A DNA stretch of 58,124 bases, filler included, from Asterionella formosa (Eukaryota): assembly GCA_002256025.1 (NCBI GenBank). It is 4 parts of 4 records of this genome, joined end to end, with 100 filler letters (N's around TTAATTAATTAA, not from the genome) between each part and the next. Parts side by side here need not be neighbours in the genome. Positions count along the whole stretch, not along the records: positions 1 to 14,473 come from NKIB01005964.1; positions 14,574 to 29,047 come from NKIB01005971.1; positions 29,148 to 43,598 come from NKIB01005972.1; positions 43,699 to 58,124 come from NKIB01005997.1. One strand, 5' to 3'. Shown piece after piece: positions 6,290 to 55,945 of this stretch (positions within the stretch are counted from its first letter, which is position 1; the number at the start of each line of letters is the position of its first letter). The notes beneath the pieces are model-generated. The model was given only the letters and a program-made list of their open reading frames with translations. It did no database searches and had not been told where the DNA came from. The position numbers were made by a program, and so were the translations under genes.

Positions 6290-6395
6290 CAGTACCTGGT
6301 ACAGGTACCAGTAGGATGTAGTCTGGTATGGTACCAGGGGTACCTGGTACCCTGGACCAGTTCGTACATACAGGTACCTGGTACCCTGGTACCGG
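6290..6395. repeat. Cluster of GTACC(A/T)GGTAC palindromic units
   Basis: Several overlapping GTACCTGGTAC / GTACCAG units about 260-360 bp upstream of the TANGO6-like start. Confidence 0.85.
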
Positions 6396-6928
6396 GGAAA
6401 AAATGAATACCCGTCAAAGATCGGCAAATGAATGATAATCATTATATACAAATCCTTTGGAGCAGGATTTCCATAAAATTGGTTTTTACGAAAATACGGA
6501 TTTAAGACGATTTACTATTCCACTGGCCGTATTGTTTCGTGCTGAGATATTTGGTTGGTTGTTCACTAGATCCGAATTGCCTGATCGCTTCACTTCCATT
6601 TGTATGAGTTTGCAAAGGTTGACGATCAATTTGTGAGCTATATTTATGTAGGGTTTATAGATTGTCTATTTGGAATCGATAACCATATTCTGAAGCAACG
6701 TATGTACATTGATCACAAAATGTACCCAGTCATGGATGACTCACTGCTAACTTTGCAGAGCGCCGGAAAGCACTCACTGTCAAGTCAAGGTTCCAAACCT
6801 TAACAATAGTTGCACGTTCAGAGCATACATACTGGCACTTTAGTGGAAGGTTTCGGTCCTTGACATTTCGCCGGTGCATTCCGAGTATAGTACAATAGTA
6901 GTACGAAGCACCAAAAAGGCTTCGGCAA

Positions 6929-7640
6929 CTAGTCCTTCTTCGCCAGATGAGCAGTAACCCCAGTCACGCCATCGAGGCACTTGAATCTCTTACTAGCAAT
7001 GTCGTTGGACAGGGCCAACCCCATCTTTTGGGTGAGCTCCATTTCCATTTTTCCAACTAGAGTAGTTGCTTCCTTCTTGTGAGGAACCCTGCGGAGAGTA
7101 CGTATGCCGTCGTCGATAATAATTTCAGGGATTCTGCATCTGCAACAACAATCACCAGTGATCACAAGGACATATGGACATTTTGGATTCCCAAGTTTGC
7201 CGCACTCGAATCGTGATTTAGCAAATAACTTAACCCAGTTTGGAACAGGGCCGAACGTGATAAGACTTTTATCGTTGTCGGCAAGTGCTCTTCGATGAAC
7301 AACGTCCTGGCTTTCCGTTTCAACCTTGTCGAACACAAGGTCGGCGCCGATGTCATTGCGGTAGTCTTGCATGATCTCGTTCATGGCATTGAGCGTATAG
7401 CCGTTGATCTTGTCTTGTGCTACAAAGAAGGCAAGAGAATAAGTTAAGATCAAATTCCATGGAAGCTAACTTTGTTTCGGACCCGTAGAACTCACCGACA
7501 GAATCACACAAATGGATCACGGAACCTTCAAACTCAAGAGTTATTTCGTAGTTTGCATGAATGAGTGCTGCAGGATCTTGAGCGCTTATCGTGGGGGCGC
7601 CGATGGTCAGAACCAGAGCACAAAAAATAGAAGCTTTCAT
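6929..7640 (-). CDS. Hypothetical secreted protein, 2 exons (7640-7496, 7419-6929; 211 aa)
   Basis: Signal-peptide-like start MKASIFCALVLTIGAPTISA. A 76-bp GTGAG...TTTGTAG intron (7495-7420) joins the 95-aa and 174-aa ORFs in frame (145+491=636 nt). Confidence 0.75.
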
Positions 7641-8540
7641 GATGTGGTGACTTGAATTATGTTGTATTGAAAGGAATTGTGAGCTCTTGTCTAGCCGGAG
7701 AATGGGACACTAACTGATAATTATTTATATCTCAATGTATATATACCGGTATATCACGTTCTCTCATCATCACTACTTCTACGGCAAAGAATACCAGGAA
7801 ACAACTTGGGTCGTGAGACAATCCACGTCTTTGACCAGTTATGCCAGAGTTTTCAATTAAGCCATAGGTGGTTGAAGAAATTTTTATAACTTGCCGACAG
7901 TTTCATCTCGAAACGAGAGATGCCATGAAGACTACGAAGTCCACCTCGCCCTTACTTTTCGGAATAATAAGGAACGATGTACCGTTAACTATCACGTTTG
8001 TGGAATGAGCCGATATCTTGGCCAATTGCATTTCAGGACATGCAAGAAGGGCCGTTGCGTCGAAGTAAGTGGGAAAGTTGAGCGCCCTTCGAAACTATTC
8101 TCCTAATAGGAACAGCCCCAATTTTTGACGAAGACAAAACAGTGCGTCACGACTGAACGCTACATGCGTTTGTGGATTCTGGCCCTCAACTGGAACAGCA
8201 GGAAAGGCTGATTTTAGCGGATTGTGCGCTGTACCCCATAGATTGAACCATCACAGTGAACTCTTGTATCGTCATCCGTTCATCTGTGTTTGATACGATA
8301 TCACATGGCGCAGAACCATATTTTGTGAGTTTGCACCCTCGTATCATTGTCGGTTCAACTGTGGTTGGTGCATATTCAAATATTCCTGTCAACCAAGTAC
8401 ATATGAGGCTGTCTTGGATTACACGTCATCAAACGGGATGATTGGTCGTATTCATGCACAGGTATAATTAACAAAATAAGGTATGGTGGGATGATAAAGA
8501 TTCATCATGCAGTCGTGCTGCCACGGGTATACAGTATACT

Positions 8541-8616
8541 TACTACCAGGTACCAGGTGACGAAGATTATTTTAGCTAACCTGGTACCCATTACCAGGTA
8601 CCTGGTACCAGGTACT
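8541..8616. repeat. Cluster of TACC(A/T)GGTA palindromic units
   Basis: TACCAGGTACCAGGTG...ACCTGGTACCCATTACCAGGTACCTGGTACCAGGTAC. Confidence 0.85.
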
Positions 8617-9306
8617 ATGTGCCGGTCTTCGGAGTCAATATCGGGGGTTATCCAAAATCTTCAGGCGAAGAACGAAGATAATCTTCTTTTCTATGAACCC
8701 GTAGTAAGTATTCGGGGAGATTTGCGAGTTATTTAGCCCAGTAAGGAAGTAAAATACAAAGATTCTACGCCGAACAGGTCATCCGTTTGAGTCAATCTTC
8801 GTATTGTTTCGTGCACCGACTGACTGCTACGGTAGAGACTACATACATAAGACAGGAACAAGATCACAGCGATGACTGGCATACTGTACAGCAATTGAGA
8901 AGGATGATGGACGCCGAACTGAAAAAACAATTTTCAAGCTTAAAATAGACTGCCTCCTTTGTTCTTTATACCATACGACTCCTATTTATTAGTCAGAACA
9001 ATGCATGTGCTATCAACGACTTCGATGACTTAATTCATATTCTAAAACGTATTCGCATGATATTACACAGTGGCTAAAATTATAATTGGAGGCAATCCGT
9101 ATTCCGGGACAATAGATCGTTCTTGCTATTGGGCTCTGGCTGATTTTATGCCTTGCGTTTTAACGCCTTCGTAGGAGATTGCCATCACCTGCATGGATTT
9201 GCGAAAGTTGGCACAAGACTCTAAGACGTGCTTACATCTTATCATTTAGTTCAGCTTCACATCATTATGAAGATTCGGTTCCATCGTATTAAGATCATTA
9301 CACATA

Positions 9307-10833
9307 ATGGTCATGGATAGACCGAGAGTTAAGAAGGAGAGAGCGACGAGGGCTTCATTCAAGAGGCTTTTCAGAATTATCCTTCTTATAACATTTCTTT
9401 GTATATTGAGAAAGCAACCCTTACGTGAGCTACAGTATTACCTCACTGTACGGGAGTTTTTCAAGGAAGGCTTGGCCACCAGTGAGGAAGGCAGTGATGA
9501 CCCTCAGAATCTGAAGGTCTTGATGAAGATGGAGGACGACATTTTGGAATATCCCTGGAATCAGACTTTAAATGGGTGGGAACCACCAAGGTGGATTACT
9601 AACTATATAGAGTGGCACAGGGAAGTGCGATCGACTCATCCTGCGTTCAACAGTGACAGTGAAGCACCAATTCCCCCTCTATATGTAGTGTATTGCCGAA
9701 TTAACCCCGGATCATTTGCAGCGAGAAGAAGCTCAGACTGTGGAGGTCTTCATGATCGGCTGGGCTCGCTTCCCTTCGACTTGTACATTGCCAACCAAAC
9801 AAAACGTCTTCTCCTCTATGTATGGGAAACCCCCATGCCTCTTGAGACTTTTCTCGTTCCGAATCTTCTGAATTGGACCCTCGATTGGAATCGCCCCGAC
9901 CTCCGACTGATACTAGAGACTGCGCCGAATCTGTTTACAGGTACTACAAATGCGTTTGTAAAATCTATTTGGACCCAGATGCCCGAAGCTATTAGTCGTG
10001 GTTTGAATCATGATATTCCTGTATATGTCTCTTTTGTAATTGGTCATCATAGTGAGTACTCCTTTGAAAATGCTTTGAGGAAACTACAGGAGACTGATAT
10101 GATACATACAACACCCACATTTGGCTGGATATGGCATGCTCTGTTTAAGCCATCTCCAGGACTTGAAAGATATCTTGAGGCAAGCAGGAGTGCCATGAAT
10201 TTGACCAAAGGCGGGTACACTGCTATACATATTCGATTGCATTATCCAGTATTGATGGGACAAGCTAAGAAAAATGGTCTAAAACTCAAATCCCTTGACA
10301 ATCCAAAGAACTTCAAGAAATTTGGTTTTGACAAAGGTGATAGTGGCATTGTTTTCAAGGGCGATGGAAAGAAATTCGCTGTTAACATTGGGCTCCATGC
10401 TGTTCAATGTGCAAGAAAATTAACCAAAGGTGATGCAGAACCCTTGTACTTAATGTCAGATGCAAATTATTTGGCAGCATACCTCGGGAAACATAGTGGT
10501 GTTGGCAGCCAAAATAGGTTAGCCAGCAAAGGTCAACTTGATCGCCATGTCAACAAAATGCTTTCTCAGGTCACCATAGTGACTCGACGTGACATACACA
10601 GGAGAAATTTTCACATTGATGGACACATGGGTAATGCTACAGACTTTTTTCCTGTTTTTGCTGACTTATACCTTGCAATGGAAGCACGATGCATTACCTT
10701 TGGGTATGGAGGTTTTGGACGATTTGCAAGGCAACTTACTAACAAGACATGCTACTCACAACATCAACTTTTTCTTAATAAGGAAGCTTGGTATAAAGGG
10801 CATTCCCTTCATGATAAAACCCATGTTTGTTAG
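9307..10833 (+). CDS. Type II membrane glycosyltransferase-like (fucosyltransferase-fold) protein
   Basis: N-terminal basic stretch plus single TM. Motifs CGGLHDRL, YTAIHIR, LYLMSD and DLYL...GGFGRFA occur in the order seen in GDP-fucose-utilising GT-B enzymes. Confidence 0.6.
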   Translation: MVMDRPRVKKERATRASFKRLFRIILLITFLCILRKQPLRELQYYLTVREFFKEGLATSEEGSDDPQNLKVLMKMEDDILEYPWNQTLNGWEPPRWITNYIEWHREVRSTHPAFNSDSEAPIPPLYVVYCRINPGSFAARRSSDCGGLHDRLGSLPFDLYIANQTKRLLLYVWETPMPLETFLVPNLLNWTLDWNRPDLRLILETAPNLFTGTTNAFVKSIWTQMPEAISRGLNHDIPVYVSFVIGHHSEYSFENALRKLQETDMIHTTPTFGWIWHALFKPSPGLERYLEASRSAMNLTKGGYTAIHIRLHYPVLMGQAKKNGLKLKSLDNPKNFKKFGFDKGDSGIVFKGDGKKFAVNIGLHAVQCARKLTKGDAEPLYLMSDANYLAAYLGKHSGVGSQNRLASKGQLDRHVNKMLSQVTIVTRRDIHRRNFHIDGHMGNATDFFPVFADLYLAMEARCITFGYGGFGRFARQLTNKTCYSQHQLFLNKEAWYKGHSLHDKTHVC

Positions 10834-11220
10834 CCCTTAATAAACCAGTTTTCCTTCTGCATGAGATACATCATTTTGAAAGTTACTTCCTGTTTTCTAT
10901 TAATTTATAGTTTTATGCAAGATAATGTTGTAGCTGTTGCTTACAGTCTTGTTATTGCCACCAGCAGAATGGAAAAAGATGCGGAAATGTTCCTAAAAAT
11001 GATTCAGAAATTGATATGAGAAAGGTAGGAAAAGTTGTGCAATACTCATAAGAAATGTGTGTTTGACTGCTCTGACTTTTTTAACCCTACCTCTAATCTA
11101 GGGTTGAAATGCAATAACCTAACAAGCAAATCAACAAAGGCAGCGTTTTGATGAATGTCATTGGGCGACCATGCTGTCGTCACTATGATTCTAGTATTCA
11201 ACTCTGTGACACTGGCCATC

Positions 11221-11991
11221 ATGTCTCATCGCCAAGAAATCAACAGATCGCCACCATTGTCAAGCTTCTCTCATCGAGCTGTTGCCTCTAACAAGAAGAC
11301 TCGTAAAGTCAAGCACATTGTGTCCAACGCGGACAGAGCCGAATTAGAGAGACACTACACTTTCTTACCCGAGAAAGATCAGATAGACAAATGGCAAGAC
11401 CGCATGGTGCAACAGTATCATTCGCATCTATACAAGGAATATGTGCTAGCAGATTTGACAAGGCCTGGTCAAGTGGGCTTGCGATGGCGGACAAGAGAGG
11501 AAGTAGAAAGTGGCAGAGGACACACAACGTGTGGTAACAAATTTTGCCGATCGACTTCCTGCTCACCGGAAAAGTCACCGAAAACTGATTTGTTGTTACG
11601 AAATTATTTTAGCTCTGCTATTTCTAATTCAGAATTCGAGGAGCGAAAATTACTGGAAAATATTCCTTTTGGGCTAGGGCTGTTTGATTTCGAGGTGCCG
11701 TTTACTTACGTAGAGCAAGGAGAGTCAAAAGAGGAGCTGGTTAAACTGAGCCTGTGCCTCAGATGTGCTCCACTGCTTTTTCAAACGAAGGGTCGTTCAG
11801 ATCCCGCATTGAGAGCAAGACAGGCAAGAGATCAGATGAGAGAAGACAAAGGTAGAGAGGAATTCGCCTTTGTAGATGAGGGAACAAACGACCACCGGAA
11901 GCAACAACAGCCTTCAGAAACGGACTCAAACAACGAAGACGAGAATCAGCGACGGAGAGACAAGAAAAGAAGAAAACAAGACAGAAGATAG
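11221..11991 (+). CDS. FRA10AC1: Folate-sensitive fragile site protein FRA10AC1 (spliceosome-associated); alternative upstream ATG at 11155
   Basis: Motifs YHSHLYKEYVLADL, GLRWRT.EEV.SG.G..TCGNK.C, FEVPFTYVE.GE.K..LVKL.LC..CA; basic C-terminal tail. Confidence 0.9.
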   Translation: MSHRQEINRSPPLSSFSHRAVASNKKTRKVKHIVSNADRAELERHYTFLPEKDQIDKWQDRMVQQYHSHLYKEYVLADLTRPGQVGLRWRTREEVESGRGHTTCGNKFCRSTSCSPEKSPKTDLLLRNYFSSAISNSEFEERKLLENIPFGLGLFDFEVPFTYVEQGESKEELVKLSLCLRCAPLLFQTKGRSDPALRARQARDQMREDKGREEFAFVDEGTNDHRKQQQPSETDSNNEDENQRRRDKKRRKQDRR

Positions 11992-12093
11992 TAAAACAGG
12001 AAAGGAAGAGAAACAAATGATATTAAACGATAATACAAATCTAAACGTAGTCTGAATCCTTGGTATCCTACAATCTTGATGTCTAAAAAAGTA

Positions 12094-13617
12094 TTATGCT
12101 GTCGAACTGGCACTATTGACCCAGTCCTCCAATTCCGTGGGGATGGTTCTGGATCCTGATTCGACACGCTTCCATGCCGCACTTTGGGCGCGAAGGGGAG
12201 AACGTTGCACAACATAGTGAAAGTTGGCCTCTGAAAAGAGATTGTCAAAAGAAATCACTGTGAGTATGCCAGGTTTCGTGCACGAGAACTATTTTAAAAC
12301 AAAATATAGTTTCACGAGATTTTAGAAAGGAAACGCTCACCTTCTAATAACTGCGAAAACTTGGGAGCCGTGCTAATACCAGCCTCCGCAGCACTTCTTC
12401 GCTGTTCTGGGGTCATATCTTCCAAATTGTCGAGAGCATCCCAATATTCTGGCAATTCAATTTTAGGAGGGTTAGCCGCATAGTAGGCCTTGACGACCAA
12501 TGATTGAGTCAATGAAAAAACATTGGAGGTAAACCAATAAATGGTCAAGCCAGCGGGAACTTGAAGAGAAAAGTATCCAATCATCAAGGGTAAGAACTTG
12601 AGAATACCTTGCGTTTTCTCCATTTGTTCTTTTTCCTCGTCGGTCATGCTATCATCTACCATGGATGGCGACAAAACGTTCATAGTGAGAGACTGTCCCA
12701 ATACCAGGAGTACAGGCATGATCAAAAAGGCAATCGTCGTCTCCCATCCCATTTGTGGCACAGGAAGAAAGCTCCCATCAACCGTCGTCCATCCAGTAGT
12801 CAACCAATCCATTCCCTGGAATTTGGGAGCAGTCACGGGACCTTCCAATGAGGGAATCCACAAAAACGGTTCTTGCAAATCACCATCCATGGCCAGTAAT
12901 CGGATACCTCTGTAAAGACCGAGCAAGACGGGGAGCTGTACAATCGACAACAAGCAACCAGAGAGGGGATTTTGTTTTGCATCTTCGAACAACTTGGAAA
13001 TGGCACGGTTTTGGGCTTCCTGGTTGTCCTTGAATTTAGCTTTGATTTCCGTCATGTATGGCTTCAACGCCTTTGTGTATTCAGCCGACTTGGTTTGTTG
13101 AACAGAAATGGGAATCAACACGGACCTGACGACTTTTGAAAATGGAGACAGACAGCGTAAAATTAGAAGAATTACAATAAAAACTATCGGTATGGAGGCG
13201 GCATGGAATATCACGAACAGCCACACTGTTACACCCAACCTTAGTCGTACCTGCAGTGAATATGGCGATCGAGATCCCCCAAGTTTGTGTGATGCCCTGG
13301 TCACGAAGAGGTTGATCGATTGTGGCGTGAATAAACGAGAGAAAGGACTTGAAGAGTCCCAGGTAGTTTGACCACCACCCTGATTCCTGAACAGCGTCGG
13401 TGGCATCGGCAACTGCTGCATCAGTGAGCATGATGGAAGAGAAATGTTGAAATTGGCTGACTACAGCGCTCATGGCATCTACATGTTCTGGCAGAATGGC
13501 GGCGACTTGGGTCAATGGCGCCTTCAACGTCGTTGTCTTTAACATCACGGTTGGCCGAGGCGCAAAGGCGGCTGCTGTCCCCACACATAACAAAAGAACG
13601 GCTGCTGCTGATCTCAT
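12094..13617 (-). CDS. ALB3: Plastid thylakoid insertase ALB3 (YidC/Oxa1 family), 3 exons (13617-13251, 13132-12341, 12230-12094; 431 aa)
   Basis: WGISIAIFT, NPLSGCL...QLPV, FLWIPSLEGP, QVPAGLTIYWFTSN. Two GT-AG introns keep frame (367+792+137=1296 nt). Leader MRSAAAVLLLCVGTAAA-FAP fits the ASAFAP plastid-targeting motif. Confidence 0.92.
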
Positions 13618-14030
13618 GGTTTATGGTCGTTCGATCCTATGCAATGGTACAATGGTATGTATGATATAGCTACTAATACCGGTACTGTATATGGCTGAAA
13701 CCGGATATATCTTGGTGTCACAATTTTTCTCTTTTACGACTTTATATGCATTGCGGTATGAACCATGTTATTTGCATTGTTTCGTTTTGCTACCATAATC
13801 ATAAGCCCAAGGAGATGATGGGGAGGTTCGGATGGGCCTGCCTATTCATGTGGGGATGATGGCTGATGGGCGGAAATGTTGAAGTCCAACAACCTCGTCG
13901 CGATCTTCCACGTTGAACGAAGTGGACGGCATGTTGGTTGTCGACGTACATACGGCAGGATAGAGATTCAAACCGTGGGTAGGAACCTAAGTACAGGCAC
14001 AGTTTTATGTAGGTAGATACGAACGATGCT

Positions 14031-14126
14031 GTGGTACTGGTACCTGGTAGACTACCAGGTCCGGTGACCAATGATGAACCTGATACCAGTGCCAGGAGTA
14101 CCGGTACTGGTACCAGGTACCTGGTA
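14031..14126. repeat. Cluster of TACTGGTA/TACCGGTA/TACC(A/T)GGTA units
   Basis: GTACTGGTACCTGGTA and GTACCGGTACTGGTACCAGGTACCTGGTA upstream of ALB3. Confidence 0.85.
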
Positions 14127-14473
14127 AAAGGTATGGGCAGGGATTGCTAGTCTACGAGTACAGATGCAGTACCGGTATATTGGTTTGATTATAAAAAATA
14201 CAGAATCGGCCGTCCATGGATTAGCAGTATGCGAGTACAGAATCAGAATTGATATACCGGTATATAAAGTAACACCCCTACTGCTTGAGCGATCTTGCGC
14301 ATCAATACAGATGTATATAGGGTTAGTGTTATATCATTTATGTATAAGAACTCAATAATGAGAGAACTCGACTAACCCTCATTGTATACTTTGGTGTCGA
14401 CTTGGAGAACGAGTTACACACAAGGATTAACAAATAAGCTCATATATTCAACAAATACTACTACTTCTAGTTA

Positions 14474-17137: not shown

Positions 17138-17201
17138 CCTTTGCACAATCACTTTTTGTCTTCCTGACCTTAACTTCCACAAGCAATCGTTTTTAAAAAC
17201 G

Positions 17202-18042
17202 TGTTGAGATGTTCCAGGTCTCCTTGATAGTACTTACAGGTCTAGTGTCCAGTACTACTACTAGTTCTCCACTAGCTAGTTTTCGACAACACTTTAATCT
17301 ACTTTTAGATTAATCTCTTTCAATGTTGTGATTACTTCAGATTACTTTTTCTATCAATCTTACCAAATTCTATCAATCCTGCCAAATTACTTAGTCTGAC
17401 CAAATTGATCTTGTTTCACGAATTTAAGTTTCTTGGATTTGTTCTTCACCTCAATCCACTCTTTCTCATTGGTTGACTTCATACGATTTTCAATTCTAAT
17501 CGTCTCAGTCTAATCATTCAATCTTGCATGTTGGACTTGCTCTGTAGGAATTGCTATTCCATTTACGAATCCCACATATATTTTCCTGAACTGACCTTCT
17601 TGTTCCATGGAATTCCTCACCATGACTGTCGGTCGTGCAGACTGTGCAGTCATTGCAGTACTAGATATACTACTGTGTGCTAACAGTACCGGTAGTCGTT
17701 TATCCTCAACCCTGGTTGTCACAACAAGAGATTCATTTCGTGAAAAATATTTAGCTATATTTTTATAAAGTATGGTTTGTACCATACCAACGAGAGCTAC
17801 CAGTCATACTGTGAGGGTGGTGGTGGTTTTTCTCTCGCTCCGCAGCATCATTGCTTTTGTTCTTTGCACCAAAATTATTGCAGTCCGTGCGTTGAGGGTA
17901 CGGTATTTACTTACTACCAGTATCAAAGTACCGTACGATACACCAATGATCAAATCATGAATCAAATTACGCGTAAATGAATTAATTCATGAATCAGCAA
18001 ACCGGTTACCGCTAGTAACAAACACAACAAATTCTTTCAACA
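17202..18042 (-). mobile_element. Candidate 5' LTR of the copia element (~841 bp)
   Basis: Bounded by TGTTGA (17202) and TCAACA (18042), 65 bp from the gag ATG. The second LTR is not in the window, so this is unverified. Confidence 0.45.
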
Positions 18043-26628: not shown

Positions 26629-26810
26629 TAGTACCTGGTACCTGGCCAACATACATAACGTACTGCATATATTTCAATGTGATGCTCAATTCAAACATCA
26701 AGTACCAGGTACCACCAGGGCGGTACGACCAGATACCGGTACAAACCGCATGTAGTACTGGTACTCTGCTGATGCATACAAAGCTAATATGCAACAAGCT
26801 ACCGGTAATC
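26629..26810. repeat. Cluster of TACC(A/T)GGTA/TACCGGTA/TACTGGTA units
   Basis: Five or more units 310-500 bp upstream of the HA-domain gene. Confidence 0.8.
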
Positions 26811-27123
26811 ATAGAGGAGCATGCTGTCAACTCATCATGGTGTGTCACAGGCACATCAGCGCCTCTTTCATCTCCATGTTCTGAACAAGTCCTCATCGAC
26901 GACAAGCTTTCACAAACAAGCAAAATAAGAGCTTTCGTTGTCCTTAGTTGTGTCTGACCATCAATACTAAACAAGACTATATTAGTATTAGTCACTGCAG
27001 ATATCGACCGTATATTGTTGCAGGTATATACGGGTACTAGATGCTAGACTACCGGTATACTTACTGTACTCTACTATTATACTATATGCATACGGAGTAG
27101 ACTGTCAAGGCCACTCTGATTCC

Positions 27124-30612: not shown

Positions 30613-30650
30613 TACTAAACCCTGGTACTATACTAGTGTTATTGCTTCTC

Positions 30651-34955: not shown

Positions 34956-36452
34956 GCTGTTGGAATCTAATGAAATTATAATGAGGGAGCTTTGTTTCTT
35001 TCAAAGTGATGGCGGATAATGAAACTGATATTTGTATGTAGTGTGAATTACCGGTTCAGTTGATAGATGCTCTCACCGGCGCATGGACGCATTTTCATAA
35101 GATATGATGTATACGACCGTATCACGTATCACCATCAGGTTGCGATACTCGTTTTCTACCAGGGTACCTGGTACCTAGTACTGGTAGTCATAGCTGATGC
35201 ATATTGATAGACGATTTTGGATGGTGGAGACCACCACATACCGATGATACAGTATACATAGCGATCTAAAGAAATATGAGATGCTGGTTATGAGGCACAT
35301 CATTTTTGAGTCAGTCGTATGTTATGATATGCACCTAAGATACCAGTATGTGTTTGCATATATGTATGATCAAAACATGCCATTCGACTCCGATTGCTCG
35401 TCGCCGGACGAGCTGATGCCATCACTCCCCACCACCTCATAATTAACTGTGAACAATCAACCATGAGAGCAGTTTTGGTATTAAATTCGTGTGATACCGG
35501 TACATATGCGTAATTCTTGTTTCCGCTTAACGGAAGTGTCATCTGCAGTTCAACGTTGCTATTGGCTGCAGCACATGCATACGTTGGTAGAAGTATCTGG
35601 ATGTACACCGGTCGTATTGTGAATATTTCCTGGTGTACCTGGTATCTGGGCGTGGTACTGTTGTGGGGTGACGACGTCGTCTCGATTCGTATGTCCGCCG
35701 CCTTGTGGTATGTTGGGCTTCGCCATAATCACATGTACATTAATTTGCGTTATGAATCATGTGCATCCATCGGCCGTATGATATGTACATGACGAGAAGA
35801 AAACATAAAATAGAAAAAGTCAGCCCAAACATTGCCGTTATCGATATACTGTGTCTACCCCCACCACTTCTATCACCATGGACTCTCCTTCATCGACTAA
35901 AAACATTATGCAAGCTCCTCCAAGTGAAGACCCCTTTGCTGATTTGGATATCGTTGCGCCAACGACGAAGGAATTGCCATCTCCAATGGAATTTGGAAGT
36001 GGAGCAGCGGTGCCAACCATCACGACGACAGTAACAACAACGAGCGACGAACCAAACAAGGAGTAAATAATTATCTTATATTACTCGTCCCCTAGAAGGG
36101 TACACGTGTGTTTAGTATACATCGTGCCACGGACAGCAAGAAAGCAAATAGATAGCAATATAATAATACAAAGAAGACTATAGAGACGAAGATTGTTACA
36201 ACATTCAACTGACTTGTGAAATATAAATAGAATCAAAAGTCGCTGTCGTGTAGAACACTGGTAGTCCTTGGCAAAATGCGGTGCGGTTAGGTCTATCTGT
36301 ATCGACAATCCTTCAATCTAAAGTCTTTTCCAATAGCTAAGGATTCTTTGAGCTGAGCTTGCAACGCACCATGTGATCTTAACTGTTGGGTGATGGGCAA
36401 TCAAAGTTCCCTTCACTGCTCCTTGTGAGACTCAATCATTGTAAAACGTGCA

Positions 36453-37946: not shown

Positions 37947-39458
37947 GCGTCGCCCTGCCGGTGATTAATATGATTCTGATTTTATGACGTTTTTTGATAC
38001 ATCAGAAGAAGCATTTTGGCTTTTTGTTTGTTCACCATATCATTTCGTCCTTTCTGACGATGATGATTCCGGTAACCAACCCGGAGGAAAAAGTTCGCTT
38101 TTCGGCAATGTATTGCTTACCTTTGATAGTTGTTCACTGTGTACGACAAACTGCTACCTGGTACCCTACCATCCATGTTGTGTGTTATACATATTGTATG
38201 TTAGCAACCTGGTACCAATACCTGAGTGGCACTTTCAAATTATCGTGGTCAAAATTAGAACAAAAAAGTTTATTATTGAACAATTACCTTGTCTACCGGT
38301 ATGCTAGGCTAGATATAGGAGCGAAATAGGAATGATTCATTGTCGATTTTCGTGGAGATATTGAGTTCAATCAGTTCATCATGGTCAAGACACAGATAAT
38401 GAATCATCAACCCCAAACTAGCTATGACTGTACAAAATCAAATTTACTTATGGATGACAAAGGATTCAGATGCCTTGACAGGTACATCACACGTTGGTCT
38501 TCATATATATCTCAGACTTGAGATTCATGTGCTGATCCCCTAAATGCTCTCCCCATTATGCCAACCATACAATATACAAATACATAATGTGGTTGTGTGT
38601 CCCATATGTCCTACTACATATATAGCTAGCACCAGTAACTGTGAAGAAGCAGTACCAGTGAAAATGCTGTCACAAACAGGGACCAGTATTTTATTCTAGA
38701 TAACTTTCGAGTACAGTAAACAAACATTAGGCAAACTTGTGTGCACCTGTTAAACTTAAACTACTGGGACAATGGTAGGTCTGATGCCTCCAGCGCAAGC
38801 CATATTTTAAACCAATTAAAATGCACAGTGATGCATTATGGCCGGAGGCTGAAATGAGCAGGGATTTTGTTCAAAAGTACCGGTATATTACATATAATGG
38901 TAAGTACTGTACCTGTGGGGATATGTGTATGAAATTTGAATGCGTAGGAGCATACCGATATCTAATAGGCATTTGTACAACAACAATATACATAAATATT
39001 TAGGTAATAAGAAGAAATATACGTATTTGCAATTCATAAAATTGATTGATGGTGGGTTTGGGAAGCAGACCATAGCAATCAAACATAGTTTTCCAATGAT
39101 ATCGCTCAAATATAATTGCTATTGTTTGCTTGAATTTCGGTGCATGAACAAAGAAGTTGAGGCACCAATAGAACCGCAGCAACCTGGTTGTTCAACGCGA
39201 ATTGTAACCATTACATTAGCTCTATTCATAAAAAGGAATATAGAATCATTTTTTAGCCATACAAGCTAGTGTGCTTGCTATTGCTGTGTTTCAAATATTT
39301 TCAGAAATTCTCTATTGCTGTAGGACAATATAATGTATTCGTTTCTTGTTAAAATAGAAGACGAATATTGACGTTGGTAAAAGAATTATAGATATTTCTT
39401 CGTTATTAACGTAAAGTGATTATCCTCATACTGTTGTGGGTTTCGCAAATGAGTTATT

Positions 39459-43598: not shown

Positions 43599-43698
43599 NN
43601 NNNNNNNNNNNNNNNNNNNNNNNNNNNNNNNNNNNNNNNNNNTTAATTAATTAANNNNNNNNNNNNNNNNNNNNNNNNNNNNNNNNNNNNNNNNNNNN
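43599..43698. other. Artificial scaffold linker
   Basis: 100-bp N/TTAATTAATTAA/N spacer. Confidence 0.97.
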
Positions 43699-45191
43699 TA
43701 CCGGTAGGTACTGCTACATTTGTTTTATACCGGAAATCTCTTCCAACTAGACCTACTGCCTCCCTCTGTCCAATATTAATAAGTTGCATCGATAATTCAA
43801 ATTTATCCGGGGCCTTTTGGAATCCTACGATTTTCTCTGTATCAATTGCCCTACCGGTATTGTGTGGTTTGCATTTATAATATATACCGGTTTGTAGTAA
43901 TTTTAAAATTGGCAATTATTCACAATCTTGAGCTTGCTAATGGGCAAGCTGGAGTTATTTAGTAATTGCAATAAAGATACAACCACGATTTCACACCCAT
44001 CGCTGCGCAATGGACTTCGATTTCATGTTCGTCATGAATATATGCAACGACGACAACAACAAGATTATGGATGCATGAGTACATAAAGTTTATCCATATG
44101 TATGTTTTTTATATAGAACATTTCACTTAAGCTAAAATTATGTTGTACTGGTAGATAAGATGGCTACCCAATGTACACGGTAGTGTCTAGATGCATCAAG
44201 ACATAGAACCACGGCAACTTGTGTTCAATCATGGAAGAATGCGCAACCCAAAGTAGTGATTATGGAAGGAGGAAAACGACAGCATGCTCGTTTCGAGAAT
44301 TGTAATACCCCAATTATTTGAGTGGCCAGAAAATATAAAACAGGATTTGGCGATATCTAGATGTGGTAAGTAATGCTATATGTATGTTCAATTGGCTTCG
44401 AATAAATTAATGAGATGCTAATAAATGCTAATAATTTAATTATAGAAACAGAGCACATGTTCACGTCTATGTAACTCATTAGTAAAAACGCATTTTTCGA
44501 GCACGCCGACCCTCACGTCGAAAGTTGGTATGTTGACCACGTAATCCTTCACACGCAAACAGTAAAGACAATGCCGGCAGTGGTGCCGGCGATTTGAGGC
44601 AATTGTTTTCGTCCAGAGGAAGTTCCTGGTACCTGGTACATGGTTCCGTAAATGTTGCACACAGTGCAGGACTTTTGTCATGAGCTCCTATGATATAAAA
44701 CTGAAACGCGGGAAATATTTTATTCCTGGTCAAATCCATCAATCGAAATTATAATATAAATTGATGCTACAAAACGTCATATTGTCAGTTTACATCAGGA
44801 AGAGTCGACAGGGCACCCCGTTCCCGAACACATGGACGATTTATTTTTTAGGTGTGTTTATTTCCTGTTAATTAAGTGGCATGTTAAATTTTTTTGTATG
44901 CAGGATCCACCAAACAGTATGTTCCCAGATATTTGATAGAACCTGGTATCAGATACCGGTAGATGTTCATTGTTTGTACTTGCTACCAGGTACCAGTAGC
45001 AAATTAAATGTCCAACTTGGTATCGAAATCTCTCATGCATTTTTATCTCGGTCATCCGTCGATCATTGGAACCATCTTTGCGCGGTCATACTTTGAAATT
45101 ACCTAAGTATAATCCCAGAAATCATTCTATTGGTTCGGTTCAAATTGGCAAGTGGACGGTTGCTTAAATACATATCATAAATGTATACAGG

Positions 45192-48809: not shown

Positions 48810-49046
48810 AATCTGCTAGGTTGCGGGGATAAACGATAAGTTATTGCACATCAACGGTGCTGTTTGATGTCGAATCCGACTTCAGGATGGTCATCCCGCC
48901 TGGCTGATCGAGACATAACAATTACTCCGACAGATGTGTGCTGAGTGAGGCATCAGCTCGAGATGATCTGAAGGGGGGGGGGGGTTGAAATACCGAGTCT
49001 CATATCATCGGTACCGGTAGCCTTTTTCGGATACCGGTACCTGGCA

Positions 49047-49839
49047 CCAGTAAAAAACTGCCATGACCCATTGAGTTAGGGTGTTTGTTTGACTCCTCCG
49101 ACTAATGGTAAATTCTACCGAATTGCGGATCCGTTTGTTCGATACCGGTAGTGTCAGAGCAGCATCGATCAATCAAGCTGTCGTGTTAGAATTCTGATTG
49201 AACGATTTCATCAGAAGATACGATGATAATAAAACTGCTAAAAAGTGATTTCAATGGGTCACGGCAGTATATGGTTTTTTTCTTCATATTCGAATATAAA
49301 TTAATATACATTTTCGAGGACGGATTAGGTCATGTATTAAAGCACTTGTCATGCGTGTTATTAGAAAGGTGCGATGAAAACCTGGTATGTACTCCCTACC
49401 TGTTATACCCGTGGTCATGCATTACGCATTTGCATGATGATGCCGTGCGCCTAAATAATTTGCCATCTCCGTAGAAGTCAATAACAAGACAAGAAATACT
49501 ATATTGTCGCAAATAAGGTGAAGGCTCAAATCAATATCGAAATTTTTAAATACATCGTCGTATTTCATATGATGCAGTGACTTCTAAACTTACCCTAATC
49601 CGTGTTCTTCATGGTTTTTCGGTTGATCGACCATTTCAGGCAATCTAGTATCGAGATGAATAACTTGCTCCAAATCTCAAACTAATTACATGGCTGACTA
49701 GCCTATATGCTCGGGAAGGAGCCAGAACTCTCAAAATCTATATTTATTTTAGTTTTGATTGCAAAACGTGTTATTCTGTGTTCAATGGGTCACGGCAGTT
49801 CAAAAATATTCTCAATGGGTCATGGCAGTTTTTTACTGG
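49047..49839. mobile_element. MITE / non-autonomous DNA transposon, 793 bp, 29-bp perfect TIRs
   Basis: CCAGTAAAAAACTGCCATGACCCATTGAG (49047-49075) is the exact reverse complement of 49811-49839. Flanks are CA and TA. Internal TCAATGGGTCACGGCAGT copies at 49251 and 49782. Confidence 0.9.
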
Positions 49840-49848
49840 TACCAGGTA

Positions 49849-51925
49849 CCACTTAAAAACTGTAACCCACCGCTCCGGCGACTTTTGAACTGTAAGCCAC
49901 CGCTATATGGAGTAAACGAACGGTTTGAACTTAGTTTACAAGATACGCTATTTATTGTCACGAACGAGTTGTTCAGATTTATATAGCGAGTAAATACTTC
50001 CGTACTTGTATTGTTGCATTGTGTACATTGTTAATTAGGTATTATCGCCCAAAGGTTGCTGTTGACGTGAAATTGCGAAAATTGGATATTTTCAAAGTTA
50101 CTTGATTGAGCAATATCACCTTTTATATGCGTATACATATATAAAAATATTCCTCCGCTAGAAAACTAATTAGTATCCTCTAAAATTTATTTAATATGGC
50201 TACGACGTCATTGCGCTTTCGCTTGTGCGCCATAATAAAGAGATAAATTCAGTAATGGAAAACGTCAAATAGGAATTCCTGGCGCGCCCGAATTATGAGT
50301 ACAACAATTAAATGCAAACACAACAATCACTCATCACCCATCACAATACCAACATCATGACCTCGAAAGCGCCTCGACAAGGCAATGCCTTGCCTCGAAA
50401 GAAATTGTCTCCTGAAGAGTTGGTCAGTTTTCAGATTTGTCTTAACAATGTGATTAGGGAGCTAGAAGCTTGGCCTAGATCCGTTTGCTGCTTGGGAAGG
50501 AGAAGATGAAAACATACATGGCAACAGCGGAAAGGGAAAACGATATCCACAAGGACCAGTCTGTGATGTGGAAGGGAAACAAATGCCTACATACTGCTGT
50601 GTGTCGGAAAATGGCTCAATCACTGCAGAGCTTCTGGTTGGCATGCTAAAGCACATGGATGACTCTTGCATCTTTCCTCGAAACAACGGGCCCCCACCAT
50701 TCCTAATACTTGATGGACATGGGTCTCGATTTGACATTTTGTTCCTTGAATACATAAGCAACCCAGTACACAAGTAGACAGTCTGTATTGGTGTTCCTTA
50801 TGGTACAAGCTACTGGCAGGTTGGAGACAGTAGTGAGCAAAACGGTTGTTTCAAAATGAACATCACAAAAGCAAAACGCAAATTGCTCACCCTAAAAGCA
50901 GATCACAGGCCAGAGCTTACAATTAGCAAGGTCGACATTGTTGGACTGGTGAATACGGCATGGGACAATTCCTTTGCAAATATTGCCACAAACTAGAAAG
51001 CAATTTATGAACGAGGATGGTATCCCCTGAACTATAATGTCTTGCTTCACCCTGAGATTCAACTAACCCAACCACAACAGAACATCAATGATCCCACAGA
51101 GACTGCCACTCTCTCCCCTGATGAGTTAGACCTCCATTCTTGCTTTGCTTGAACAATTGTTGGAAGAATTAACGAGTTTTGCAAACACGAGGATTTGCGA
51201 AATGGAATCGACCGGGAGGCCCAAGCTAGAAAGAGATAGGAGACAGCGGATTCACACAAGAAGAGGATAACAGCAGGACTACTGGCCTCTGCACAAACCT
51301 TTGCCCTTGGGCCAAATATTCTTTCTGCTACACTGGAACGGAAGCGATTTCAGACATTGTCATTAGTACAAAAGAAGAAAAAAGGGAACAAGAATTCAAT
51401 ACACTTTGCGGAAAAGTAATTACATTGAAGGAACAGAACAAAAAAAGAACAGATGTCTGTGCCAGAATTGAAATTAATGGTGGGTTGGTACAAATGATCA
51501 GGTGATTTGCCGGTTCCACAAAGAAGGCAAGCTCTGATTACAAGATTCGACGACACCAATCACCATGTGACCAGCAGCCGCCATTCCCTCTCCATACGAT
51601 TCCTATTGCTGTGGTTGTTGTTACTGCACTCCTCCTGTTGCTATTCTCTCTCCTTCTACAACTGCTTCTGCCGATCCACCATTCCGTGATGAAGTTTGAG
51701 ACTCTGCAAGCAAGTAATTGGATGCAAAGAAGCTCGAGATTAATGTAATGCATCAGAAGAATTCTTCAACAATGATGCTGCCCTGCAAAAGTGTAAAACG
51801 TAAAGTAATAAGAAAATAATTTTTGTAGTATTAACGGAGTAAAAAAAACGGTTTGGGGGTAAAATATATACATGTACAGATAAAAAAATATGCACTGTAA
51901 GCCACCGCCGCTATGCAATAATCTT
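49849..51925 (+). mobile_element. Degenerate pogo/Tc5-like (DDE_1) DNA transposon, internally deleted, right TIR missing
   Basis: TA|CCACTTAAAAACTGTAACCCACCGC left end; CTGTAA(C/G)CCACCGC at 49860, 49890 and 51895. Broken ORF contains SENGSITAELL, FLILDGHGSRF and GVPYGTSYWQVGDSSEQNGCFK. Confidence 0.8.
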
Positions 51926-52135
51926 AGTTGGCAAGAAAAGACTAATTTTGGCGACTTCAGGAAATTCCATGTATTTCCTGAAATTTCCTTACGCATTTCC
52001 TTACGTTTCCTGACAGTTCCTGAAGTTTCCTTAAGTTTTCCTGAAAGTCCTATGCGTTTCCTGAAAGTCATAGTATTTTCCTGAAATTTATAGGAATTTT
52101 CTGAAAGTCATAATGCTTCCTGAATGTCATAGTCA
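51926..52135. repeat. TTTCCTGAAA-motif-rich dispersed repeat
   Basis: About 12 TTTCCT(G/T)A units; same family as 1750-2006. Confidence 0.7.
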
Positions 52136-55100
52136 TATGCTGGGTGTTCTCGTTTTGCAATTAGAAGAATTCCGCTATATATTTCGCTGAATCGTGCTAT
52201 GAATAGAAGATGTTCTTTATACTTTATAAAATATGTCGATGTCCAGTGATATGTTGTCCGTTTCAGGAAAATGACCGCTGGTTGAAGGTAAAACAACGAG
52301 ATGCGGTCATTTTGCTTAAATAAACAATTCGATATGCGATAAAAACAGCTAAATCCTTGGTTCAGCAAAATTACCGCAACTTGCTGGAAGGTCCGGTAAT
52401 CAGCGCACATACCGTGCAGGTTGCTCGTTTTATGTTCATCGATTCATGTACGAGAAAAAGGAAGGGGTATACCCCAAAAATTGTCGAACCCCTAAATTTT
52501 GAAGATTACCGGAGCTTCCTGGATTGACACTTATAGGTATATCTGTAGTTGAGCAAGATCGCTCACTCTCCCACACCAAGGAAAACCTTTCACCTATGAA
52601 AAGGTTTGATATGACAAATATTAATTCAATCAGTAGTAGGTACAGTTCAGTGATATCATATAGTTTCAACATTGCACCATTCAACTTTCCGGGTTAGTAT
52701 CCCCGCCCTCTTTAATTCCCTAGTACTAAGCCTACGTGGGCAGTTTGTAGCGCTGCTGGTGACACCCTCCTCATTCACCATGTCCTCTTTGGACCACACT
52801 GCCGCTCCATTTGCTTACTCCTCCTCCACTTTTATTCACACTTAAATTGGTCTGTTAGACCTGCCGGTCAATCCACAGTAAAAATCATTCAAATCCGCCC
52901 ATTCTAGCCTGAGAAAACCAATTTCGCCTACGTTGCACACCACTTCTCACAGCGATTTCTTCACGCAAATCCTTTTTCCTCCACCCATGACCTTCCTATC
53001 TCTCTCTCCCACTTCCAACTCTCTCATATTCACCTGGAAGACCAGCCTCAGTAGTAGACCCTCCGGAAATCCCAAGGAACTGCTTTCCATTGCTGCCGCG
53101 ACCCACACTTTTTGCCATCGCTCAGGCACCAAAGGCAGCAGGAATAACACTTTTTCCTCTGATCTTGCTGCTTCATCGGAAATTGCGACTCCTAATAAGC
53201 CATCAGATCCATCATTCCATCAAGTACTTCAAATTTACTTATTGTCTAAGTCTGTCCCCTCTCCAATTTCAGTTGATTACACCTCAGAACAAGTCGATGC
53301 CAGCACTATCAAGACCTCTCGCTCTTCAAGCAATAATATACATCCATCCCTGCATTTCTTCTATCCTATTTATCACCCCCCAAAAAATACTGCTTTCACA
53401 AGCTTCAAGAATTTCTTCCGCTTTCAATCCGCCCATTTTGACTGCTGCATTTTATTTATCTGAATTTTGACACCTTCTTATCAATTTACCATCCACAGCT
53501 TCCATGCTATTCTTCTATATCTCTCTCTTGCTTCCTTCTGACACCACGCATCAAATATCTACTCAAGTTTTCTCAAACCCTGCTTCAAAGCTGTTTGTCA
53601 GCTTCTGTTTTCCATTCTATCACCTACTTGCTNNNNNNNNNNNNNNNNNNNNNNNNNNNNNNNNNNNNNNNNNNNNNNNNNNNNNNNNNNNNNNNNNNNN
53701 NNNNNNNNNNNNNNNNNNNNNNNNNNNNNNNNNNNNNNNNNNNNNNNNNNNNNNNNNNNNNNNNNNNNNNNNNNNNNNNNNNNNNNNNNNNNNNNNNNNN
53801 NNNNNNNNNNNNNNNNNNNNNNNNNNNNNNNNNNNNNNNNNNNNNNNNNNNNNNNNNNNNNNNNNNNNNNNNNNNNNNNNNNNNNNNNNNNNNNNNNNNN
53901 NNNNNNNNNNNNNNNNNNNNNNNNNNNNNNNNNNNNNNNNNNNNNNNNNNNNNNNNNNNNNNNNNNNNNNNNNNNNNNNNNNNNNNNNNNNNNNNNNNNN
54001 NNNNNNNNNNNNNNNNNNNNNNNNNNNNNNNNNNNNNNNNNNNNNNNNNNNNNNNNNNNNNNNNNNNNNNNNNNNNNNNNNNNNNNNNNNNNNNNNNNNN
54101 NNNNNNNNNNNNNNNNNNNNNNNNNNNNNNNNNNNNNNNNNNNNNNNNNNNNNNNNNNNNNNNNNNNNNNNNNNNNNNNNNNNNNNNNNNNNNNNNNNNN
54201 NNNNNNNNNNNNNNCAAATGTGCAAACTGTTCAGCATTTGGCTGGTATTTGTTAGGCAGATAGGTCACTAGCTGACCAACAGGAGGGTTCATTATGGCCA
54301 CTAAAATTTCCTGGGAAGAATCATAAAAGTTGGCATGTATAGCCCTTGGCACAGTACCCTAACCAGAAATACCCCTAGAGCACAATACCACAAGAAAACC
54401 ACTAGCTAGCAATGGTGTTAAATCAATCAGCTTAACAACAATGGTGGTGCTTTTCTTGGTAGCATTGATGATCTGATGGATCTGTAGGTCATTTGTAGGT
54501 GATTCCAATTCAGTGGCAATTCCAAAAGTTGAGCTTTTAACAATCCATCGGAGAAAATCATTTCACCACTCCACAATCATCGCTACACCTGTCCATAGAA
54601 CCATCTGTTTGGTGCTTCTCGTGCCCCTGTTGATCTGTTGATTGTAGCATTGTTGAAACCTGCCAATTGGTTGCTCTACTGGTTGCCAATGTCCGCATTG
54701 ACAAAAACATTTCTCCAATTTCTTGCAAATTAACCCATTCCCGATATCATTGCTTGTTATCTCTGCTTTCGCGGGAAAGAGGAGGTATGAAAATGGATAA
54801 GTGGTGAGTGAGATTCTGGTGGGCAAAGATGTGCGACAATATCCAGTCTGCTGGTCGTCACTCACTTTTGGGACTGTCTTGATGCTTGTTTCTTCAGCGC
54901 CAATATCTTTTCTTTACCTTTTGAGCGATCCTCAGCAATCAAGTCCAACAACTCATTGAATACCACAACATCACTGACAATATCTTGCCAAGGATCGTCA
55001 GTAGAATCACTCTGGAAGGATAGCAAGGAGGACAAGGAGGCCTTGGCAGATGAGTGAACGATTGTTGATTGCAATTGTACTGGTTTTATGTATAGATGAA

Positions 55101-55945
55101 GAGTCAGCCTACCAGTACCGGTAGTCAAATTCTATTATTTAAGTGATTTTATCAAGTGCTTTGGGTGTGAAATCAATTTCCTGAATGTGACTAAAGTTTC
55201 TGAAGAAAATTGTCTGCATCGGGAATATCGACAAATTTCCTGACATGACTGAAAAAAATTGAGTTTTCGGGAAATCAAAACCCGGCAAAGTCAAGTTTCC
55301 GACGTGACAAAGAACAGCCAAGAATGGTTTTCGGGAAAATATCTGAGTCAAGAGTTATTTTCTGGCACAGTAGTAAGCAATGGCCTAAACAGATTTATAA
55401 AATTACAAATATTCGTCGCAAACCGTGTGATTACCCGTTTTGTAATGATCAGTTTTTGGGTGTAACCCCTTGGTACCGGTAATATCAGACGAGAGGATAA
55501 TCTCGTGCGTTCTACATGCTGCTTTTGTCCCGAGGACCTCCTGGCTTGTTGCTGACGATTAAGGCTACACAAGAGACAAAATATCAATGAAGGTCGAGGA
55601 TCGATCATCAGTCTATCGCACTCACTACCGGTATCATAGGCACCGACAATNNNNNNNNNNNNNNNNNNNNNNNNNNNNNNNNNNNNNNNNNNNNNNNNNN
55701 NNNNNNNNNNNNNNNNNNNNNNNNNNNNNNNNNNNNNNNNNNNNNNNNNNNNNNNNNNNNNNNNNNNNNNNNNNNNNNNNNNNNNCGACAATCGACTGAT
55801 CTCAATTGCATGTTATTGTTGAACCTTGTTGTATTGTATTGTTCGCTCTTTGGTTCCATGCAGTTCAATCGGATGCGAGCCAAAAGTCCTTCAATTGCTC
55901 CTACCGTCTCACTATCTCTCAACACTCGTCGTAATAGCAAACATT

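What the first reader, a model, noticed from the sequence alone, without database searches (positions are those of the whole stretch)
6290..55633. Highly iterated TA-CC(W)GG-TA palindrome family clustered 5' of genes on all four scaffolds
Seen: TACCAGGTA, TACCTGGTA, TACCGGTA, TACCAGTA and TACTGGTA occur dozens of times, often chained through a shared TA (e.g. 14098 GTACCGGTACTGGTACCAGGTACCTGGTA). Dense patches or single units lie at 6290, 7743, 8541, 13677, 14031, 26629-27057, 35157, 38155-38302, 44626-44998, 49011-49050, 49835 and 55110-55633. These sit mostly 70-800 bp upstream of the starts of TANGO6-like, the secreted orphan, the GT, ALB3, HA, the PhyH fusion, COQ6, HSF, TMEM151 and the membrane protein. 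By eye they are rare in CDSs and in convergent 3' gaps (11992-12093, 21488-21621). Inference: either a genome-wide promoter-proximal element (the CCWGG/CCGG cores are also methylatable sites) or accumulated insertion scars at TA dinucleotides in open chromatin.
Basis: partly seen in the sequence, partly recalled or inferred. Interest (0 to 1): 0.8.

Follow-up and report, generated by a model that had tools for sequence, protein, structure and literature searches.

The report
Pogo transposon excision scars upstream genes
The short palindromes crowding the DNA in front of this alga's genes are most likely scars left when cut-and-paste jumping genes hopped out, and one group of these elements leaves a scar that copies its own favourite landing site, so the scars breed more scars.

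Summary
The window has 56 units; the genome has about 72,000 exact copies against 6,300 for reversed controls. They are rare in ORFs and peak 200-300 bp upstream of starts. They are insertions: paralogous repeat copies differ by bare TA versus TA-CCGG-TA or TA-CCWGG-TA, mostly with no neighbouring unit to copy, including window site 49143 (1 of 22 MITE copies). Source elements were found: TA-duplicating pogo-type transposons. CCA-ended families (a 3.7-kb DD37D element and a MITE, both in the window at 49047-51910) prefer GG^TA^CC, as do the CCWGG scars. A CCG-ended DD35D family has loose targets, as do the CCGG scars. A CCWGG scar in GGTACC leaves two GGTACC sites, which explains the chains; 71% of non-coding GGTACC sites adjoin a scar. 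Why the scars sit in promoters is not settled: surviving elements were not significantly 5'-biased (p=0.20). The scan reached the scar reading before on other DNA of this genome; the family-to-scar matching and self-seeding are added here. New variant of a known kind; interest 0.5.

The parts
6293..6397 (.). Patch of four intact units plus decayed ones, 200-280 bp upstream of the TANGO6-like gene
   Evidence: spanned without gaps by a contig of run X6
7744..7751 (.). Single TACCGGTA in TATA context (CCG-class scar), about 100 bp upstream of the secreted ORF
8544..8614 (.). CCWGG unit and a three-unit chain; 25-38 unrelated contigs per run share the chain at other loci
   Evidence: table 7
13677..14262 (.). 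Nine units upstream of ALB3, including the four-unit chain at 14099-14126
   Evidence: 11628-14126 spanned without gaps in run X2
17687..17922 (.).
26632..27057 (.). Six units upstream of the HA-domain gene
35165..35644 (.). Five units upstream of the PhyH fusion gene
38155..38885 (.). Three units upstream of the COQ6-like gene
43699..44998 (.). Seven units upstream of the HSF gene
49012..49046 (.). Two CCGG units and a CCTGG unit leading into the MITE; the TA next to the MITE reads CA
49047..49839 (+). 793-bp MITE with CCAGTAAAAAACTGCC.. terminal inverted repeats (about 29 nt), TA-flanked; 102 exact ends of the pattern searched in the genome
   Evidence: (I9)
49143..49150 (.). TACCGGTA inside the MITE: a six-base insertion at a TA, present in 1 of 22 aligned MITE copies (this one)
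49840..49848 (.). TA-CCAGG-TA scar whose two TAs are each the target of an element: MITE on the left, pogo element on the right
49849..51910 (+). Internally deleted copy of the CCACTT-ended pogo-type transposon (left TIR at 49849; broken transposase remnants about 50466-51500; right TIR not present); full-length relative is L125:376-4061
55110..55633 (.). Four units upstream of the membrane-protein gene

Best explanation
The words are excision footprints of TA-duplicating pogo-type (IS630-Tc1-mariner group) DNA transposons: target TA + a few bases of the left end + a few bases of the right end + duplicated TA. Two classes have two sources. (1) CCA..TGG-ended families (a 3,686-bp DD37D element and at least two MITE families) insert into GG^TA^CC and leave TA-CCAGG-TA or TA-CCTGG-TA (CCA+GG or CC+TGG). 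Because the scar starts CC and ends GG, one GGTACC target becomes two, so later insertions land on old scars and chains grow through shared TAs. (2) CCG..CGG-ended families (a 2,461-bp DDE_1, DD35D element and relatives) take TA with little flank preference and leave TA-CCGG-TA. TA-CCAG/CTGG-TA is a mixture: CpG decay of CCGG scars and shorter joins of CCA ends. Scars pile up 100-500 bp upstream of genes because such elements favour promoter chromatin and/or because a 6-7 bp scar is tolerated there while ORFs purge it. SHOWN: enrichment, 5' bias, insertion at bare TA, source elements with matching ends, matching flank preferences, elements and variable unit numbers at one paralogous site. INFERRED: that each insertion passed through an element-filled state; the 3-nt staggered cut and the repair chemistry; the cause of the 5' bias.
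For: Insertions: among independent indel sites between paralogous repeat copies, 19 of 47 six-base indels are TA vs TA+unit+TA (15 CCGG, 4 CCAG/CTGG), none a tandem duplication; 10 of 36 seven-base sites are (9 of 35 after merging one site seen on both strands: 4 CCWGG and 1 CCSGG non-tandem, 4 tandem). Polarity: window 49143 is filled in 1 of 22 MITE copies. Sources: L125:376-4061 has 24-nt TIRs starting CCAC, TA on both sides, and a DD37D triad; its nearest ESM Atlas clusters are DDE_1 (0.95); 225 exact ends. L197:868-3328 has TIRs starting CCGT, TA on both sides, a Pfam DDE_1 hit and DD35D; 65 exact ends with the pattern used. Flank match: GG before the TA in 19 of 29 ends of the CCAC element (hand count), 73 of 100 listed MITE ends (hand count; 102 matches), against 8% of non-ORF TAs; TACCWGGTA has GG left in 137 of 230 and CC right in 133 of 230. 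The CCG element has GG in 9 of 65 ends (hand count) and TACCGGTA in 66 of 540 sides. One hotspot in about 30 paralogous repeat copies shows 1-2 to 8 or more units, the MITE in opposite orientations (L022, L025) and the CCAC element (L173). Self-seeding: 514 of 722 non-ORF GGTACC sides adjoin an intact unit; element ends adjoin CCWGG as often as a random GGTACC does (45 of 73 vs 58%, p=0.55; 27 of 55 vs 44%, p=0.50). Single-base variants are spread over all positions, as for neutral decay. Precedent: Sleeping Beauty leaves TACAGTA/TACTGTA from 3-nt overhangs (10.1101/659086, passages); the pogo element Passer leaves 0-4 bp and favours TSS regions (PMC9976928, passages).
Against: No single site was caught going filled to scarred in one lineage; the hotspot copies are paralogs. 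Four runs laid on window 2200-14470 showed no unit-sized indel among the 12 indel rows printed (22 more rows were not shown). About 66,000 excess scars face only a few hundred exact element ends, a ratio over 100:1 that needs long turnover. Surviving element ends were not significantly 5'-biased: 21 5' vs 11 3' of 90 ends (58 unassigned) against 196 vs 174 of 700 random TAs, p=0.20. Adjacent CCWGG units are alike more often than mixed (32 vs 17, p=0.044), so slippage probably adds to chains. A 5-bp scar is longer than the 0-4 bp reported for Passer, ZB and SB. Pfam did not hit the DD37D protein and BLASTP did not link it to the DD35D one. The indel set comes from loci picked by element searches.
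Confidence: 0.88

Rival explanations
1. The words are a promoter element bound by a dimeric transcription factor and kept by selection; the transposons merely target it.
For: Strong 5' bias with a peak at 200-300 bp; palindromic; near-identical words were called candidate binding sites in oomycetes (GTACCGGTA, ATACCGGTAT: PMC10031896, passages; TACATGTA: PMC3520976, passages); CCWGG units are almost absent from convergent gaps (2 of 34 units).
Against: Units appear as whole 6-7 bp insertions at bare TAs inside transposon bodies, which point mutation under selection does not produce; spacer length varies (4 or 5); each class has the flanks of a different transposon target; variants decay at all positions; unit number at one site varies several-fold.
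Confidence: 0.05
2. Replication slippage or palindrome-forming repair at TA/GTAC generates and expands the units without transposons.
For: Chains of like units; same-type neighbours 32 vs mixed 17 (p=0.044); 4 of 9 seven-base unit indels are tandem duplications.
Against: All 19 six-base and 5 of 9 seven-base unit indels have no adjacent copy to duplicate; 452 of 530 patches in the 549-kb sample are single units; slippage does not explain why the spacers equal the ends of resident TA-flanked elements. It is a likely helper for chains, not the origin.
Confidence: 0.04
3. The words are kept as methylation targets (CCGG, CCWGG) that mark promoters.
For: TACTGGTA/TACCAGTA exceeds expectation by 117 against 14 for the matching non-CpG transition, which suggests that the CpG of TACCGGTA is or was methylated.
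Against: Bare CCAGG/CCTGG/CCGG are not what is enriched; the TA flanks are. Methylation would erode the word, not insert it. No methylation data were examined.
Confidence: 0.02
4. Assembly or library artefact.
For: The assembly is fragmented (15,436 contigs) and carries artificial linkers between scaffolds.
Against: Contigs of independent runs span the patches; the words avoid ORFs and show decayed variants.
Confidence: 0.01

Closest known systems
Excision footprints of Tc1/mariner elements (Sleeping Beauty TACAGTA/TACTGTA; Tc1 TACATGTA)
   Same: TA + element end bases + TA; A/T ambiguity at the centre as from a mismatch between 3-nt overhangs (10.1101/659086, passages; Tc1 footprint as cited in PMC3520976).
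   Different: Here the scars are natural, about one per kb genome-wide, 4-5 bp rather than 0-4 bp, chained, and concentrated upstream of genes; the CCWGG scar recreates the GGTACC target.
pogo superfamily, Passer-like DD35D elements
   Same: TA TSD, short TIRs, DDE_1 domain, DD35D, 1.6-4 kb; Passer favours TSS regions and occurs in stramenopiles (PMC9976928, PMC7386202, passages). L197 fits these.
   Different: The CCAC element is DD37D, is not hit by Pfam DDE_1, and has a strong GG^TA^CC preference; no tree was built to place either element in a named family.
Abundant palindromic 'promoter motifs' of oomycetes (Phytophthora motif-1 TACATGTA, motif-9 GTACCGGTA; Plasmopara ATACCGGTAT)
   Same: TA-flanked palindromes, very abundant upstream of genes, in another stramenopile lineage; motif-9 is the same word.
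   Different: Those papers read them as transcription-factor sites, and PMC3520976 rejected the footprint reading because of abundance; here abundance of that order goes with insertion evidence. The oomycete words were not tested here.

Membership tests
ITm excision footprint | Bounded by TA on both sides; empty allele is a single TA | tested here: met
   19 six-base and 9 seven-base independent sites; 49143 filled in 1 of 22 copies
ITm excision footprint | Spacer made of the terminal bases of a resident element | tested here: met
   CCA..TGG ends give CCAGG/CCTGG/CCAG/CTGG; CCG..CGG ends give CCGG
ITm excision footprint | Flanks match the element's target preference | tested here: met
   GG: 73 of 100 MITE ends and 19 of 29 CCAC ends vs 59% of CCWGG sides; 9 of 65 CCG ends vs 12% of CCGG sides
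ITm excision footprint | Same site seen filled and scarred | tested here: inconclusive
   One paralogous hotspot shows filled and unit-bearing states, but no allelic pair; four runs gave no unit-sized indel in the rows shown
ITm excision footprint | Produced by the transposase in an excision assay | not testable with these tools
   Needs a bench assay
pogo superfamily (source elements) | TA target duplication and short TIRs | tested here: met
   L125 24-nt TIR, TA in 29 of 30 left ends; L197 about 28-nt TIR with TA both sides
pogo superfamily (source elements) | DDE_1 domain with DD29-56D triad | tested here: met
   L197: Pfam DDE_1 E 1.7e-19, DD35D. L125: DD37D by sequence and DDE_1 neighbours in the ESM Atlas, but no Pfam hit
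pogo superfamily (source elements) | Placement in the pogo clade by phylogeny; CENP-B/HTH_Tnp_Tc5 DNA-binding domain | not tested
   No tree built; Pfam found no HTH in the broken L125 N-terminal frame
Promoter cis-element | Positional bias relative to gene starts | tested here: met
   Peak 5.5 per kb at 200-300 bp upstream
Promoter cis-element | Stable site of fixed length that arises by substitution and is conserved | tested here: not met
   Whole-unit insertions, variable length and number, decay at all positions
Promoter cis-element | Bound by a factor; affects expression | not testable with these tools
   No binding or reporter data

The most novel reading that the evidence does not exclude
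A transposon whose excision scar duplicates its own target site has run a self-seeding cycle that built most of its present landing sites (71% of non-coding GGTACC) as arrays in promoters, so the roughly 66,000 excess scars form a fossil map of promoter chromatin and a main source of promoter indels; the same process would account for the abundant TA-flanked 'promoter motifs' of oomycetes, which were published as transcription-factor sites.
Probability: 0.4. Interest if true: 0.72.

Novelty: new variant of a known kind. Interest (0 to 1): 0.5.

Why it matters
Footprints are normally seen a few at a time in assays. Here they are the most over-represented words of a genome, sit where motif finders look, and would be reported as a master promoter element. 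The case gives a simple test (empty-TA alleles, matching element ends, matching flanks) for re-examining similar palindromes in other stramenopiles, where the footprint reading was rejected on grounds of abundance. The GG^TA^CC-seeking DD37D element is also a natural example of a transposase with a six-base target that its own scar regenerates.

Tried and rejected
Strain polymorphism: one laying of four runs on window 2200-14470 showed no unit-sized indel in the rows printed; 22 indel rows were hidden, and contigs drop rare variants, so this is no evidence of absence. 5' bias of surviving elements: not significant. Pfam on the window's transposase remnants and on three L125 frames: no family. 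BLASTP L125 vs L197: no significant match. A de novo search for TA-flanked TIR pairs in the data then held did not find the CCG family; it was found through the DDE_1 search, for which I read 4 of 93 matches. Rejected: GG as part of the element end (less conserved than TA and CCA, and empty paralogs show only TA doubled); CCWGG-TA as part of a longer TIR (elements with both ends listed are asymmetric); CCSGG (20 vs 1.6 expected) as proof of 3-nt overhangs at CCG ends, since decay of CCWGG could give most of it; full fill-in of both overhangs (TACCATGGTA 0 in 549 kb). The GG counts (55 of 72, 17 of 21) include loci ranked by flank likeness, so I lean. Literature searches listed no paper on genome-wide footprints in diatoms or on a self-seeding target; the library lacks most subscription journals, and I read no supplements.
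Full report
Setting. The window is four scaffolds of an intron-poor eukaryote joined by N44-TTAATTAATTAA-N44 linkers. Gene content (ALB3, HA-domain and HSF proteins) and the freshwater runs that hold it fit a freshwater diatom; this is inferred, no tree was built. Its genome G000 has 68.4 Mb in 15,436 contigs.

The observation. The five words occur 56 times, 56-fold, 39-fold and 7.5-fold over a second-order Markov model. Genome-wide exact counts are 26,886 TACCWGGTA, 28,528 TACCGGTA and 16,745 TACCAGTA/TACTGGTA, against 902, 1,718 and 3,655 for the reversed words: about one per kb. In 606 kb with long ORFs as gene stand-ins, density is 0.12 per kb in ORFs, 0.73 in convergent, 1.71 in tandem and 2.45 in divergent gaps, with a peak of 5.5 per kb 200-300 bp upstream of starts against 0.5-1.4 on 3' sides. 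The sample contigs were large ones listed by element searches, not a random draw. Contigs of independent runs span the patches on scaffold 1, so the words are real.

They are insertions at TA. All-against-all alignment of the window, the sample and 129 other loci gave 8,600 alignments at 80-99.9% identity. After clustering, 19 of 47 six-base indel sites are bare TA versus TA-CCGG-TA (15) or TA-CCAG/CTGG-TA (4), none beside a copy of itself; 9 of 35 seven-base sites are TA versus TA-CCWGG-TA (8) or TA-CCSGG-TA (1), five of them non-tandem (one site was listed on both strands and is merged here). At window 49143 the unit lies inside a MITE and is present in 1 of 22 aligned copies, the window's own, so the filled state is derived.

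The source elements. The window holds two of them side by side, separated by one TA-CCAGG-TA: a 793-bp MITE with CCAG ends (49047-49839) and a deleted copy of an element starting CCAC at 49849. A full-length relative, L125:376-4061, has 24-nt TIRs, TA on both sides and a broken transposase with a DD37D triad. Pfam missed it but its nearest ESM Atlas clusters are DDE_1. A DDE_1 search gave 93 matches; of four read, L197 is a 2,461-bp DD35D element with CCGT ends and TA on both sides, L195 is the same family, L196 appears to have another CCGT end, and L198 has a CAGT end. A further common TIR family begins CCWG after TA and could add to the CCWGG class.

Two classes, two targets. CCA-ended elements have GG before the TA in 19 of 29 ends and 73 of 100 listed MITE ends, against 8% of non-ORF TAs; TACCWGGTA has GG left in 137 and CC right in 133 of 230. 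The CCG-ended family has GG in 9 of 65 ends and TACCGGTA in 66 of 540 sides. The counts are by hand from the printed lists; the patterns leave out ends with T eight bases out. So each word carries both the end bases and the target flanks of one group of elements.

How it works. Shown: ends, TA duplication, target preference, insertion at TA. Inferred, by analogy with Sleeping Beauty (10.1101/659086, passages): 3-nt staggered cuts leave CCA on both donor ends; a one-base overlap with an A:A mismatch resolves to CCAGG or CCTGG; CCG ends pair through CG to give CCGG. TACCATGGTA, the product of no overlap, was not seen in 549 kb. TACCAGTA/TACTGGTA is over expectation by 117 against 14 for the non-CpG transition and has intermediate GG flanks (38 of 137), so it is probably part CpG decay, part direct product. 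Since a scar begins CC and ends GG, excision from GG-TA-CC yields GG-TA-CCWGG-TA-CC, two targets. 514 of 722 non-ORF GGTACC sides adjoin an intact unit, and element ends adjoin CCWGG as often as a random GGTACC does. One site in about 30 paralogous repeat copies shows from 1-2 to 8 or more units, the MITE in opposite orientations in two copies and the CCAC element in a third; L129 has two element ends sharing one TA. Single-base variants total about 0.6 per intact word over all positions, roughly 7% divergence by my arithmetic, so scars have built up over a long time.

Against, or open. No allelic filled-to-scar pair was seen, and four runs showed no unit-sized indel in the rows printed. Scars outnumber exact element ends over 100-fold. 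Like neighbours exceed mixed ones 32 to 17 (p=0.044), so slippage likely lengthens chains. Surviving elements were 21 5' to 11 3' against 196 to 174 for random TAs (p=0.20), so the 5' bias is not yet tied to insertion preference; the pogo element Passer does favour TSS regions in human cells (PMC9976928, passages). A later regulatory role was not tested.

Comparison with what is known. It works like, and by the sequence tests is, a set of ITm excision footprints; the bench criterion could not be tested. L197 meets the pogo features in PMC7386202 (passages); L125 meets TSD, TIR and triad spacing but was not placed by a tree (PMC7325037, passages gave no direct match). Reported footprints are 0-4 bp (PMC7913693 and PMC9976928, passages), so the 5-bp class is long. 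In Phytophthora, TACATGTA upstream of 12,070 genes and motif-9 upstream of 1,284 were proposed as binding sites and the footprint reading was set aside because of abundance (PMC3520976, passages); PMC10031896 gives motif-9 as GTACCGGTA and reports ATACCGGTAT in Plasmopara (passages). Seven searches listed no paper on genome-wide scars in diatoms or on self-seeding targets. No supplements were read; family tables in PMC7386202's supplements could already list these elements.

Earlier notes. Eight notes on other pieces of this genome reached the scar reading for TACCGGTA; I had formed it before the look-up. A word search for the GGTACC preference and self-seeding found none.

Verdict. Real, genome-wide, and explained with high confidence as footprints (0.88). 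New variant of a known kind: saturation, two matched source groups and a scar that regenerates its target. Interest 0.5.

Noticed in passing
window 14574-17200, minus strand: Decayed copia-type LTR retrotransposon (integrase and SH3-like Pfam hits); a second copia RNase H-like remnant near 30900-31390 by eye.
   Followed up: partly
window 29148-29756: C-terminal piece of a tyrosine-recombinase-like frame (DIRS or Crypton type, by recalled motifs); Pfam gave no hit.
   Followed up: partly
window 1326-2150, 51810-52300, 55174-55340: Dispersed repeat with internal TTCCTGAAAG sub-repeats at 20-bp spacing, once joined to the tail of the CCAC element.
   Followed up: no
window 52293-52387; L130, L132, L135, L151, L155: Common TIR family beginning CCWGCAAGTTGCGG after TA, including about 95-bp miniature copies; a possible further source of CCWGG scars.
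   Followed up: partly
L195:815-1207; L196:1040-1170; L197:2730-3115: The CCG-ended pogo elements carry a second short ORF facing the transposase, conserved between two families (read by eye); function not examined.
   Followed up: no
549-kb sample and paralog indels: TAGCTA is 2.9-fold over expectation and TA vs TA-GC-TA (20 records) and TA vs TA-C/G-TA (62 records) are frequent indels; TACAGTA/TACTGTA is 1.8-fold, with a CAG-ended element at L198. These may be scars of other families.
   Followed up: no
L129:1121-1123: A right end and a left end of the CCAC element share a single TA, as expected if the element's own end forms half of a GG^TA^CC target.
   Followed up: partly
L034:782-1483: A second CCAG-ended MITE family (CCAGTAGAT..) with GGTA flanks.
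   Followed up: partly
window 9271-10833: The 520-aa frame called a GT has no Pfam hit and draws several diverged contigs per run, so it belongs to a multi-copy family.
   Followed up: no
window 30650-30760 and 42975-43118: A 9-bp TTG/TTA microsatellite, and 12-bp coding repeats giving a Pro/Thr-rich tract in the minus-strand frame 42953-43642.
   Followed up: no
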